From: Escherichia coli
Lineage (GTDB): Bacteria > Pseudomonadota > Gammaproteobacteria > Enterobacterales > Enterobacteriaceae
Direction: 5' to 3' (one strand)
Assembly (NCBI RefSeq): GCF_003790525.1
Contig: NZ_CP033635.1
DNA length: 64,000 bases
The translations under genes were made by a program, and so were the position numbers. This document shows, in pieces, positions 54,696 to 56,521 of the stretch (position 1 is its first letter; the number at the start of each line of letters is the position of its first letter). Below the pieces are notes generated by a model. It was not told the DNA's origin. It was given only the letters and a program-made list of their open reading frames with translations, and ran no database searches.

Positions 54696-54887
54696 ATGAA
54701 AATGTTCAAAGGCCTTACCAACGAACCGGAGACAGCTTTTCATCACATTGCCGTACTGCTTGAAGCGGGGTTAATCATTTCGGCTTCCGGTGATGAAGAA
54801 TGTGATGAACTTTCGGATGATATCTTTTTACTGGCACAACAATACGCCAGAAGCGCATGCGATGCATTTAAGGAGCAAAGAACATGA
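54696..54887 (+). CDS. hypothetical small acidic protein
   Basis: 63-aa; strong RBS AGGAGGA upstream of ATG 54696. Confidence 0.5.
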   Translation: MKMFKGLTNEPETAFHHIAVLLEAGLIISASGDEECDELSDDIFLLAQQYARSACDAFKEQRT

Positions 54888-55075
54888 AAACGCCCATGAC
54901 TATGCTCGAATATGTAGCCGCAGAAATAAAAGAAAACACGTCAATGCTTGAGTTTATCTTTAAAAATTCGCCCGACTCAGGAGAGTTAGACGATTATTTA
55001 TGTTGTCTCATCAGGTCCATGAATAAGACCTGTGAAATGGCTTACGAGTATATAGAAACACTACGTAACGAATAA
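54884..55075 (+). CDS. hypothetical small protein
   Basis: 63-aa; start overlaps the previous stop; AAGGAG upstream. Confidence 0.5.
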   Translation: MKTPMTMLEYVAAEIKENTSMLEFIFKNSPDSGELDDYLCCLIRSMNKTCEMAYEYIETLRNE

Positions 55076-55259
55076 AGAATACTCAATAAAAAATCACACA
55101 TAAAAACATGACGGCCTCTGGTCGGGAGTTTTCACAACCAGAAAATAATGGTGATACATGAAAAATAGAAGCGCTTATAAAACCGCATTATTAATGGCTA
55201 ATGCAGGATACTGGTCAGTTGCAATACTGTTTCTCAGGAAAGCATACGGGAAATAACAA

Positions 55260-55619
55260 ATGGCACGTGAAATCATTGATAAATATCGCCGCCGCATAGC
55301 CACAGCAGCACTACAGCGGATGCAGCGTAAAACAGGTGGCAATCTTCTCATCGTAAGTCTTCCTGACGGTGAGTTAACCACCATCGAAATTACGGAACAC
55401 TTCATGACACAACTGTTATTACGATTTGAAGGTCTTACCCGTGTTGAATTTGGACGGACGGATGGCGAGACCGCAATACTTGCCGCATACCGCAATGCCA
55501 TCAATATTAATCAACACACTGAGTATCTAACTGAATCGGGGAAGTTAATTGTAGACAACCTTTTAAAAGAGGTTGTTGATTACGAAAAAGAAAAATATAC
55601 CAGTGGAGGAATTAACTGA
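55260..55619 (+). CDS. hypothetical protein
   Basis: 119-aa ORF in the plus-strand early operon. Confidence 0.5.
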   Translation: MAREIIDKYRRRIATAALQRMQRKTGGNLLIVSLPDGELTTIEITEHFMTQLLLRFEGLTRVEFGRTDGETAILAAYRNAININQHTEYLTESGKLIVDNLLKEVVDYEKEKYTSGGIN

Positions 55620-55828
55620 TGTCTGATTTATCCCCTCTTATACACGAAAAAGTACAGCTCATTACGACGATTGAAAATGGTCAGGTAATAAATACCCGTA
55701 AAGTTCACAATAACGGGATGATTGCCAGCATGGATACCGTCTTATGGATAGCAAAGAAAGCGGGATATCAGGTAATCGCTCCTGATCCGGAGGAAATCGG
55801 TGACATTAACAGCAATACGAATTCCTGA
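55619..55828 (+). CDS. hypothetical protein
   Basis: 69-aa; start overlaps previous stop (ATGA). Confidence 0.45.
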   Translation: MSDLSPLIHEKVQLITTIENGQVINTRKVHNNGMIASMDTVLWIAKKAGYQVIAPDPEEIGDINSNTNS

Positions 55829-56014
55829 GCGTGTCAGACAACAGGCGTTACAGGTCCTGTTGCGATACCAACGCCGACGGATATTTCCACACCGAATACA
55901 CAGTACCGGATATCTCAGCCTGAAGGTTAACCGTAGCTGGCGGCTGTTATCGAAAGACGACGGTCGGAACTGGAAGGTAATGAGCCATGAAACGTATAAC
56001 GGAGAATTAAAACG

Positions 56015-56521
56015 ATGAGCACCAACAAAAACAACAACGTCAAGCAACTAGTTGCCCGCCTGAAAGAAATGCAGGAGCAGTCCGGTACTCCCATCCCTGC
56101 ATGGATGCTCGATGAAAATCGTTACGGCACAGGTACGCTGACAACTGAAGAGCAGCATGAATGGGCTGAAACCGTTTGTCACTCCATGCGCAGAACTGTC
56201 GCCCTGCTTTACCTGATTGAATGTGATAAACGTTGGGGCCTCCGTGACGGTGAGTATCAGTTTAAAACCGGTGAGTTTGTTTTTGGTTTAACGCGGGAGC
56301 TTATCGAGAACCTGCTTATTGAATACGTAGAAGGCGCACTGATCGAACAAAAACCACAGGAAAGATATATGGCTGTATTCCAGTTCTACTCCGCCAACAA
56401 TCAGCGCCGGAAAGAAGACGGTCATTCGTGGTTCACCGGCTTTCTTGACGAGATATTTATGGATCTTGCTGTCCGGTTGCGTACCGGTGAAAAGCCGCCA
56501 GTAAAACTGGTTTTGCATTAA
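56015..56521 (+). CDS. hypothetical protein
   Basis: 168-aa ORF, no recognised domain. Confidence 0.5.
   Translation: MSTNKNNNVKQLVARLKEMQEQSGTPIPAWMLDENRYGTGTLTTEEQHEWAETVCHSMRRTVALLYLIECDKRWGLRDGEYQFKTGEFVFGLTRELIENLLIEYVEGALIEQKPQERYMAVFQFYSANNQRRKEDGHSWFTGFLDEIFMDLAVRLRTGEKPPVKLVLH

What the first reader, a model, noticed from the sequence alone, without database searches (positions are those of the whole stretch)
54696..56521. Run of five tightly packed small genes of unknown function in the early-left operon
ORFs of 63, 63, 119, 69 and 168 aa (54696-54887, 54884-55075, 55260-55619, 55619-55828, 56015-56521) are co-oriented, often with overlapping stop/start codons and good Shine-Dalgarno sequences. 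None resembles lambda exo/bet/gam/kil/cIII as far as I can tell. This region is the usual home of host-takeover, anti-restriction and superinfection-exclusion genes, making it the most plausible place for undescribed functions in this window.
Basis: inference. Interest (0 to 1): 0.6.

Follow-up and report, generated by a model that had tools for sequence, protein, structure and literature searches.

The report
Early-left accessory genes of a prophage
The five small genes are real, conserved prophage genes at the start of the repressor-controlled early-left operon, but the run holds seven genes rather than five, their functions remain unknown, and it looks like an ordinary mosaic accessory region, not one new system.

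Summary
All five ORFs exist at the stated coordinates. Each matches a phage protein family of unknown function, and each exact sequence is already in public E. coli genomes as a 'hypothetical protein'. The window is an E. coli chromosome carrying a phiP27/phi467-type lambdoid prophage next to yecE. A PL-like promoter with repressor-operator-like repeats lies at 54170-54260, so the 'early-left operon' reading holds. None of the ORFs resembles lambda's int-to-cII proteins.

One is a 72-aa basic ParE-like protein (55800-56018). The other is a conserved 32-aa ORF (55158-55256).

In relatives the region shuffles as independent pieces:
- **Regulator module.** It comprises an XRE-HTH regulator, o63a and o63b. 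o63a is a free paralogue of the regulator's N-terminal 'head'. o63b is an alternative head that is fused to the same HTH in sister prophages.
- **sp32-o119-o69-o72.** The ParE-like protein has no fixed partner.
- **o168.** This is a narrow family with invariant polar residues and a C-terminal His.

AlphaFold models of o119 and o168 are confident but match no solved structure. No function could be assigned. The most likely role is a set of accessory or host-takeover genes expressed on induction.

The parts
54170..54260 (+). PL-like promoter (TTGACA-18-TAACAT, 54182-54211). Operator-like repeats ATCAATTTTTTCTTGA (54170-54185) and ATCAATTTTAACTTGA (54218-54233), plus an inverted repeat at 54214-54231 / 54243-54260.
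   Evidence: Promoter scan, 10 of 12 matches. Repeat families D2, D6, D8 and inverted pairs I1-I8 are shared with the cro/cI divergent region at 53306-53399. Function as PL/OL is inferred.
54266..54694 (+). HTH142: an XRE/Cro-C1-type HTH regulator (residues about 70-140) with an acidic helical N-terminal 'A head' (residues about 10-67). It is the first gene of the operon and lies just outside the finding.
   Evidence: phrog_4836 'CII-like regulator' at 1.9e-58. It matches the DicA, RstR and HipB HTH models below their cut-offs. It matches the P22 C2 repressor HTH in the PDB. RefSeq names it 'helix-turn-helix domain-containing protein'.
54696..54887 (+). o63a: a 63-aa acidic protein (pI 4.45), a free-standing paralogue of the HTH142 N-terminal head.
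   Evidence: phrog_4587 at 1.6e-33; the same PHROG hits HTH142 residues 16-61 at 2.9e-7. hhalign of HTH142 10-67 against o63a 2-61 gives probability 99.1%, E 5e-19. pI.
54884..55075 (+). o63b: a 63-aa acidic protein (pI 4.45), the 'B head'. In sister prophages it is fused N-terminally to the same HTH.
   Evidence: phrog_6882 at 1.6e-37. hhalign of the o63b family against the N-terminus of the 223-aa HTH protein of L023/L024 gives probability 98.3%, E 2e-14. L023 and L056 become 94.5% identical in DNA exactly from the HTH onward, and carry B-type and A-type heads respectively.
Its stop codon lies 3 nt before the o119 ATG.
   Evidence: Protein-level conservation in about 110 loci, with the pattern M(T/S)FI(K/I)D..AYKTA.L.A..G...IA.L(F/Y)L(R/K)KAYG(R/K)*. 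Differences by codon position are 23968 / 19324 / 42612, and indels come in whole codons. Some pipelines call it 'hypothetical protein'. It is not annotated in the RefSeq and GenBank relatives inspected. No PHROG matches it.
55260..55619 (+). o119: a 119-aa protein and the most constant member of the central block.
55619..55828 (+). o69: a 69-aa protein, an optional insert between o119 and o72.
   Evidence: phrog_340 at 2e-19, plus weak hits to the C-terminal parts of two anti-repressor PHROGs (2.2e-4 and 4.4e-3). Homologues are 39-87 aa and, where named, come from Enterobacteriaceae. It is present in 58 of 80 o72-selected loci.
It has a GTG start, overlaps the end of o69 by 29 nt, and overlaps the o168 start by ATGA.
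   Evidence: Pfam PF24732 ParE_like at 1.7e-17 in the concatenated scan and 2.2e-19 when scanned alone; all 11 family members tested also hit. phrog_1525 at 2.8e-30. RefSeq names the orthologue 'ParE family toxin-like protein'. It occurs in 67 phage records and 491 IMG/VR loci. Invariant residues are P9, A16, L20, V43, W47, R48, D53, G55, W58, H63 and Y66.
56015..56521 (+). o168: a 168-aa protein of a narrow family, translationally coupled to o72 and followed 12 nt later by the anti-repressor gene.
56534..57391 (+). Ant285: an ORF6N-type anti-repressor, the next gene downstream (context only).
   Evidence: phrog_63 'anti-repressor Ant' at 8.2e-43. RefSeq names relatives 'ORF6N domain-containing protein'.

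Best explanation
The interval is the promoter-proximal part of the cI-repressed early-left (PL) operon of a phiP27/phi467-type lambdoid prophage integrated beside yecE in E. coli. It is not one system. It is a mosaic of seven real, translationally coupled accessory genes that reassort in relatives as three pieces.

**(A) Regulatory module.** An XRE-HTH protein (HTH142) carries a helical acidic N-terminal head. o63a is a free paralogue of that head. o63b is an alternative head that replaces it on the same HTH in sister phages. I infer that the free heads act through the HTH regulator, by associating with it or titrating it, and so tune early transcription.

**(B) sp32-o119-[o69]-[o72].** o72 is a small, very basic member of Pfam's ParE-like toxin family and has no fixed neighbour. 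I infer that it is an antitoxin-less growth-arrest or host-shut-off effector. It would be harmless in the lysogen because PL is repressed, and would act only after induction or infection. o119 and sp32 are the constant core of this block and their function is unknown.

**(C) o168.** This narrow family has a confidently predicted helical fold with a beta-hairpin, invariant Cys/Glu/Asp residues and an invariant C-terminal His. I infer an enzyme or metal-binding effector.

**Shown:** that the genes are real, the operon position, the paralogy and head swap, the mosaicism, the ParE_like family match, and the absence of known relatives.

**Inferred:** timing of expression, toxicity of o72, head-HTH association, and any catalytic role of o168.
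For: **Operon.** The promoter and operator-like repeats lie between cI and HTH142, and no + strand terminator-like site lies in the intergenic spaces of the run. The context genes are a cI-like S24 repressor, cro-like, Q-like, excisionase and integrase. Host flank identifies the yecE/cmoA locus.

**Gene reality.** PHROG matches, exact sequences in public genomes, and codon-position bias for sp32.

**Module A.**
- hhalign of the HTH142 head against o63a gives 99.1%, E 5e-19.
- hhalign of o63b against the N-terminus of the L023 HTH protein gives 98.3%, E 2e-14.
- The DNA homology breakpoint between L023 and L056 falls exactly at the head/HTH junction.
- A free A-type head follows the HTH gene in every locus inspected that has an A- or B-headed HTH gene.

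**Module B.**
- The Pfam ParE_like match.
- Independent depositor labels of 'HigB-like', 'mRNA interferase' and 'putative toxin antitoxin system protein' on homologues.
- pI of 11.6.
- The upstream neighbours are o119+o69 in 48 loci, o119 alone in 20, o69 alone in 10 and neither in 2 of 80.
- The downstream neighbour is phrog_1886-like in 74 loci and o168 in 6 of 80.
- More distant phages have unrelated neighbours.
- o119 directly abuts o168, with neither o69 nor o72, in 11 of 29 loci.

**Module C.**
Against: - No function was demonstrated for any gene.
- The ParE-like label rests on a Pfam family built from these same proteins. A profile of the family finds no RelE, ParE, HigB or YoeB chain in the PDB, and hhalign against E. 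coli RelE and YoeB gives about 0.1% probability. Its fold was not modelled.
- Module A is not obligatory. o63b-type genes occur without any HTH gene in 18 loci, so the free heads may act on their own.
- The promoter and operator assignment comes from consensus scans only. The scan found fewer promoter-like sites than the shuffled controls overall (7 against 12.4).
- No terminator-like site separates cI from HTH142, so read-through expression in lysogens cannot be excluded.
Confidence: 0.55

Rival explanations
1. The centre of the run is a canonical type II toxin-antitoxin module. o119 or o69 would be the antitoxin and o72 the ParE/RelE-type toxin. It would stabilise the prophage or cause abortive infection.
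For: The gene order is small upstream gene then toxin-like gene, with overlapping or coupled starts. In 78 of 80 o72-selected loci, o119 and/or o69 lies directly upstream. One contig carries an o69-o72 fusion.
Against: The upstream partner is not constant: it is o119, o69 or both. In other phages the neighbours are ParB-like, Dam/Dcm methyltransferases or unrelated ORFs. o119 occurs without o72 in 11 of 29 loci. No promoter-like site lies in front of the block, and it sits inside a repressed early operon. Neither o119 nor o69 matches an antitoxin family in Pfam, NCBIfam, the PDB sequences or PADLOC, and the fold search of o119 found no antitoxin relative. The single fusion is a 1-nt deletion relative to a sister contig.
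Confidence: 0.15
2. The run is an anti-defence island. The small acidic proteins o63a and o63b, and perhaps o119, o69 and o168, would inhibit host restriction, CRISPR or other defence systems. HTH142 would be an Aca-like autoregulator, sometimes fused to the effector domain, as AcrIIA1 is.
For: o63a and o63b are small acidic proteins (pI 4.45) placed promoter-proximally next to an HTH gene, with both fused and unfused arrangements. Homologues of o72 lie between Dam and Dcm methyltransferase genes in phage SW3. A Lar-like restriction-alleviation gene follows Ant in phage SaltyDalty. The AcrIIA1 analogy comes from my own knowledge and was not tested.
Against: No similarity to any solved anti-defence protein was found by sequence or by fold for o119 and o168. 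No PHROG annotation supports it. No anti-defence HMM library was available, so absence of evidence is weak here.
Confidence: 0.2
3. The promoter-proximal genes (HTH142, o63a, o63b) are expressed in the lysogen by read-through from the cI transcript. They would act like rexAB or sieB in superinfection exclusion.
For: They lie immediately downstream of cI on the same strand, and no terminator-like site lies between cI and HTH142.
Against: A PL-like promoter with operator-like repeats lies in between. PADLOC reports only generic HTH hits for HTH142 and nothing for o63a or o63b.
Confidence: 0.1

Closest known systems
The hyperplastic early-left (PL / b2-nin-like accessory) region of lambdoid phages, for example lambda N-ral-ea10-cIII-kil-gam-bet-exo-...-xis-int
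   Same: The position and logic are the same. It is a repressor-controlled leftward operon that runs from the immunity region to xis/int and is packed with small, overlapping, dispensable-looking genes.
   Different: No protein here is homologous to any lambda protein of that region. There is no recombination module of the exo/bet/gam type. The first gene is an XRE-HTH regulator rather than N.
RelE/ParE toxin superfamily (Pfam ParE_like PF24732; phage HigB-like or Gp49-like proteins)
   Same: o72 matches PF24732 at 2.2e-19. It is small and very basic, and it has invariant Arg, His and Tyr residues near the C-terminus.
   Different: At 72 aa it is shorter than E. coli YoeB (84 aa) and RelE (95 aa). 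It has no conserved antitoxin partner. It shows no detectable profile similarity to E. coli RelE or YoeB, or to any solved toxin. It lies in a repressed early operon rather than an autoregulated two-gene cassette.
Aca-Acr operons and AcrIIA1-type HTH-effector fusions (from my own knowledge)
   Same: An HTH regulator is adjacent to, or fused with, small acidic helical domains, and the effector domains are exchanged between related phages.
   Different: No homology to any known Acr or Aca was found. The domain order is head-then-HTH. No anti-defence activity has been tested.
Escherichia phage phi467 (Stx2f phage, LN997803) and phiP27-like prophages of E. coli
   Same: About 91% DNA identity over 54200-55990 with the same gene order from HTH to o72. 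Every gene there is annotated 'hypothetical protein'.
   Different: phi467 carries a phrog_1515-type protein of about 172 aa where the window has o168, and its o72 is only 63% identical.

Membership tests
Lambda early-left proteins (Exo, Bet, Gam, Kil, CIII, Ea10, Ral, N, etc.) | Sequence similarity to the lambda proteins encoded between int and cII | tested here: not met
   tblastn of all 16 proteins of the region against lambda 27000-38500 gave a best E-value of 0.013, over a 25-aa stretch inside int. Nothing else fell below 0.2.
RelE/ParE toxin superfamily (o72) | Match to a curated family model assigned to the superfamily | tested here: met
   Pfam PF24732 ParE_like at 1.7e-17 in the concatenated scan and 2.2e-19 when scanned alone; 11 of 11 family members hit. 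The family appears to be built from these proteins, so this evidence is not independent.
RelE/ParE toxin superfamily (o72) | Detectable similarity to experimentally characterised toxins (RelE, YoeB, HigB, ParE) | tested here: not met
   hhalign of the family profile against E. coli RelE and YoeB gave probabilities of about 0.1%. phmmer and hmmsearch against all PDB sequences found no toxin. NCBIfam gave no hit.
RelE/ParE toxin superfamily (o72) | Alpha/beta RelE-type fold | not tested
Type II toxin-antitoxin module | A cognate antitoxin gene conserved next to the toxin gene | tested here: not met
   The upstream neighbour varies: o119+o69 in 48 loci, o119 in 20, o69 in 10, none in 2. The downstream neighbour is phrog_1886-like in 74 loci and o168 in 6. 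More distant phages have unrelated neighbours.
Type II toxin-antitoxin module | Growth inhibition by the toxin that is relieved by the antitoxin | not testable with these tools
   This needs expression experiments.
XRE / Cro-C1 HTH regulators (HTH142) | An HTH_3-type DNA-binding domain | tested here: met
   It matches the DicA, RstR and HipB HTH models at 3e-8 to 9e-6. It matches the P22 C2 repressor and MBF1 HTH chains in the PDB at 1e-5 to 1e-3. phrog_4836 matches at 1.9e-58.
Anti-repressor (Ant) C-terminal domain (o69) | Significant similarity to the C-terminal region of Ant families | tested here: inconclusive
   phrog_4792 hits at 2.2e-4 (profile 197-242 of 268) and phrog_2379 at 4.4e-3 (135-178 of 187). 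There is no relation to the Ant in the window (hhalign). No longer fused homologues were found.
Known anti-phage defence systems (PADLOC) | Match to a defence-system protein model | tested here: not met
   None of the five ORFs nor o72 gave a hit. HTH142 gave only generic HTH hits, and Ant gave weak PDC-S05 hits.

The most novel reading that the evidence does not exclude
The interval may encode effectors of new kinds. o119 and o168 (with the positionally equivalent phrog_1515 proteins, which share the P-x-(L/M/V)-His-COOH tail) would be new-fold anti-defence or host-takeover proteins. The HTH regulator, with its exchangeable A and B heads and free-standing head copies, would be a previously undescribed regulator/anti-regulator switch, or an Aca-like effector fusion. 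o72 would represent a widespread class of antitoxin-less RelE/ParE-fold phage effectors.
Probability: 0.2. Interest if true: 0.6.

Novelty: new member of a known kind. Interest (0 to 1): 0.35.

Why it matters
Early-left accessory regions are where lambdoid phages keep host-takeover and counter-defence genes, and most of those genes are uncharacterised.

This work yields a corrected gene map of seven genes. It adds a short list of testable leads:
- a partner-less ParE-like protein found in 67 phage records and 491 viral contigs;
- an HTH regulator whose N-terminal head is swapped between phages and also encoded as free copies;
- two confidently folded proteins with no structural relatives, one of which has an invariant C-terminal His.

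This prophage type includes the Stx2f-converting phage phi467, and a relative of this cassette occurs in 354 of 5426 complete E. coli genomes. Any function found would therefore apply widely. As it stands, nothing here is surprising to a phage biologist.

Tried and rejected
- **Protein libraries.** NCBIfam, PADLOC and Pfam gave nothing for the five ORFs.
- **PDB sequence searches.** All six proteins and the family profiles of o168 and o72 gave only chance hits.
- **Rfam.** No match at E up to 1 over 52000-61000.
- **o69-o72 as a conserved pair.** Rejected. Only phi467 shares both genes among the phage records, and either gene occurs without the other.
- **o72-o168 as an obligate pair.** Rejected. 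In 74 of 80 loci a phrog_1886-like gene follows o72 instead, and o168 follows o119 directly in 11 loci.
- **Read-through fusion of sp32 and o119.** Rejected, although they share a frame in the window. In other loci the two are in different frames.
- **Homology of o168 to the positionally equivalent phrog_1515 protein.** hhalign probability is below 1%. Only the C-terminal tail and a Foldseek TM-score of about 0.5 hint at a relation.
- **Long ORFs that seem to fuse o69 and o72.** In L047, L068, L073 and L076 these are only open upstream frames. L045 has a 1-nt deletion.
- **Stray hits.** The P0124 hit is a eukaryotic repeat protein and a chance match. PF27490, precomputed on three o69 homologues, did not match when one of them was scanned against the available Pfam library.
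- **Literature.** Searches by accession number, PHROG id, Pfam id and peptide strings found nothing.
- **Word-index search for o63b.** It returned only close relatives.
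Full report
**Setting.** The right end of the window (60817-64000) is 99.9% identical to the E. coli yecE-cmoA-cmoB-torZ region. Upstream of it lies a prophage with these genes:
- a tyrosine integrase (59497-60810) and an excisionase (59205-59441);
- a LexA/S24-type cI-like repressor (53351/53429-54118, + strand) and a divergent cro-like gene (53022-53294, - strand);
- helicase and primase genes and a Q-like antiterminator on the - strand.

The nearest relatives are the Stx2f phage phi467 and phiP27-like E. coli prophages. They are about 91% identical over 54200-55990 only. 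In total, 354 of 5426 complete E. coli genomes hold some match.

**Observation.** The five ORFs are present exactly as stated, with the described Shine-Dalgarno sequences and stop/start overlaps. They are not chance ORFs:
- Each matches a PHROG family: phrog_4587, 6882, 1737, 340 and 37204, at E 2e-19 to 1e-104.
- Each exact sequence is already in public E. coli assemblies as 'hypothetical protein'.
- Their order recurs in about 110 IMG/VR contigs.

**Two genes were missed.**
- The 186-nt 'gap' between o69 and o168 is occupied by a 72-aa ORF (55800-56018). It has a GTG start with GGAGG 6 nt upstream. It overlaps the end of o69 by 29 nt and the start of o168 by ATGA. It is the only protein in the interval with a Pfam family: ParE_like PF24732, at 1.7e-17 in the concatenated scan and 2.2e-19 alone. 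RefSeq names its orthologue 'ParE family toxin-like protein'.
- The 184-nt 'gap' between o63b and o119 holds a 32-aa ORF (55158-55256). Its product is conserved across diverged loci, with the pattern ..AYKTA.L.A..G...IA.L(F/Y)L(R/K)KAYG(R/K)-stop. Third-codon-position differences are about twice those at the first or second position, and indels come in whole codons. Some pipelines call it. The RefSeq and GenBank relatives I inspected do not.

**Operon.**
- Between cI and the next gene lies the best promoter-like site of the region: TTGACA-18-TAACAT at 54182-54211.
- It overlaps ATCAA-N7-TTGA(T/C) repeats that recur in the cro/cI divergent region.
- The only + strand terminator-like site before 57841 lies inside the end of the o168 coding sequence.
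- Rfam finds no RNA family.

The 'early-left operon' reading is therefore reasonable, although it rests on consensus scans. None of the proteins resembles anything encoded in lambda from int to cII.

**Anatomy in relatives.** Mapping the window's proteins onto 80 loci chosen through o72 and 29 loci chosen through o168 shows a mosaic:

[HTH regulator] [o63a] [o63b] sp32 o119 [o69] [o72] (o168 or a phrog_1886-like protein) [Ant] ...

- Upstream of o72 lie o119+o69 in 48 loci, o119 alone in 20, o69 alone in 10, and neither in 2.
- Downstream of o72, always with an ATGA overlap, lies a phrog_1886-like protein in 74 loci and o168 in 6.
- o168 abuts o119 directly, with neither o69 nor o72, in 11 of 29 loci.
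- In more distant phages the o72 homologue sits between a ParB-like gene and an unrelated gene (Serratia OS31), between unrelated small ORFs (Murrayvirus KMB41 and sortsyn), or between Dam and Dcm methyltransferase genes (P2-like SW3).

There is therefore no obligate o69-o72, o119-o72 or o72-o168 pair.

**Regulatory module.** This is the clearest new result.
- All-against-all profile comparison of the cassette families finds one relationship only. The N-terminal 'head' of the upstream XRE-HTH protein (residues 10-67) is homologous to o63a (hhalign 99.1%, E 5e-19). This agrees with phrog_4587 hitting both proteins.
- In other prophages the same HTH, followed by a second HTH, carries an o63b-type head instead (hhalign 98.3%, E 2e-14).
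- L023 has the B-type head and L056 the A-type head. Their DNA becomes 94.5% identical exactly at the head/HTH junction.
- A free A-type head gene follows in both.
- o63a and o63b are acidic, with pI 4.45.

This pattern of fission, fusion and swapping links o63a and o63b functionally to the HTH regulator. Whether they modulate it, or are effectors that borrow it as an autoregulator, is not resolved. o63b-type genes also occur without an HTH gene.

**o72.** It is very basic (pI 11.6). Its invariant residues are W47, R48, D53, G55, W58, H63 and Y66. Depositors of three phage genomes independently labelled homologues as HigB-like, mRNA interferase or toxin-antitoxin protein.

The assignment is nevertheless thin. 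The Pfam family appears to consist of these proteins. The family profile finds no toxin in the PDB. hhalign to E. coli RelE and YoeB gives about 0.1% probability. I could not model its fold. Given its variable neighbours and its place in a repressed operon, I favour a solitary effector that acts after induction over a classical toxin-antitoxin module.

**o119 and o168.**
- o119 has 50 detected homologues; all that carry an organism name are Enterobacteriaceae, and none has a Pfam domain.
- o168 belongs to a very narrow family: 27 representatives among 1.84 billion proteins.
- o168 has 14 invariant positions. They include C70, R73, G75, E98, E106, D145 and the very last residue, H168.
- Both proteins gave confident AlphaFold models: pLDDT 91.9 and 90.0, pTM 0.83 and 0.81.
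- AFDB50 returns only uncharacterised Enterobacterales proteins for o168. It also returns weak matches (TM-score about 0.5) to 'prophage proteins' of about 200 aa.
- The positionally equivalent phrog_1515 proteins share the C-terminal P-x-(L/M/V)-H tail but are not detectably homologous by hhalign.
- One database protein, P0118, is an o119-o168 chimera.

**o69.** It belongs to phrog_340. It has only weak similarity to the C-terminal parts of two anti-repressor PHROGs, and its homologues are all short.

**Verdict.** The interpretation (early-left operon, unlike lambda, function unknown) is largely right. No function could be assigned.

The region is a typical mosaic accessory segment of a common E. 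coli prophage type, built from catalogued but uncharacterised families. The leads worth testing are:
- the partner-less ParE-like protein;
- the head-swapping HTH regulator with its free head copies;
- the conserved 32-aa ORF;
- two confidently folded proteins without structural relatives.

Interest is moderate to low, because nothing contradicts expectation and no long-standing question becomes testable.

Noticed in passing
window 51855-52475 (- strand): A 206-aa HNH homing-endonuclease-like ORF (phrog_59 at 1e-40) sits between the helicase gene and the cro-side genes. phi467 and the E. coli relative have a 369-nt hypothetical gene at that position instead.
   Followed up: partly
window 53351-54118 (+ strand): The longest cI-like ORF starts at 53351. 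However, operator-like repeats lie at 53381-53399 inside it, and relatives are 229 aa. The true start is therefore probably the ATG at 53429.
   Followed up: partly
L001 7916-8434; L003 6083-6667; L006 4153-4779: The phrog_1515 proteins occupy the same position as o168 in relatives. Like o168, they end in P-x-(M/F)-His-COOH, yet hhalign probability is below 1%. This could be remote homology or convergence.
   Followed up: partly
protein P0118 (196 aa, public collection): A chimeric protein made of the N-terminal about 82 residues of an o119 homologue joined in frame to residues about 53-168 of an o168 homologue. It is probably a deletion between adjacent genes.
   Followed up: partly
L045 517-978: A 1-nt deletion relative to the sister contig L044 fuses the o69 and o72 homologues into one 153-aa ORF. 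It is a single case and may be a sequencing error.
   Followed up: yes
L014 and L015 (IMGVR_UViG_2681813321_000026): One 24-kb viral contig holds two copies of the o72 locus about 10 kb apart. This may reflect tandem or misassembled prophages.
   Followed up: no
loci L028, L034, L042, L052, L079, L100, L104-L106, L111 and others, just downstream of the sp32 homologue: In many relatives the small sp32-type ORF is followed by a different protein of about 74 aa (for example MGMQRRQDIQCVTIKAEQLNFLMQTIF...) rather than by o119. sp32 is therefore the constant first gene of the central block.
   Followed up: no
window 57384-59196 (+ strand): The rest of the operon up to xis is also made only of families of unknown function: phrog_3409 (annotated DUF5406 in a RefSeq relative), phrog_1001, phrog_492, phrog_285 (annotated DUF4222 in a RefSeq relative) and phrog_3871. 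The whole early-left operon of about 5 kb lacks any recognisable recombination module.
   Followed up: partly
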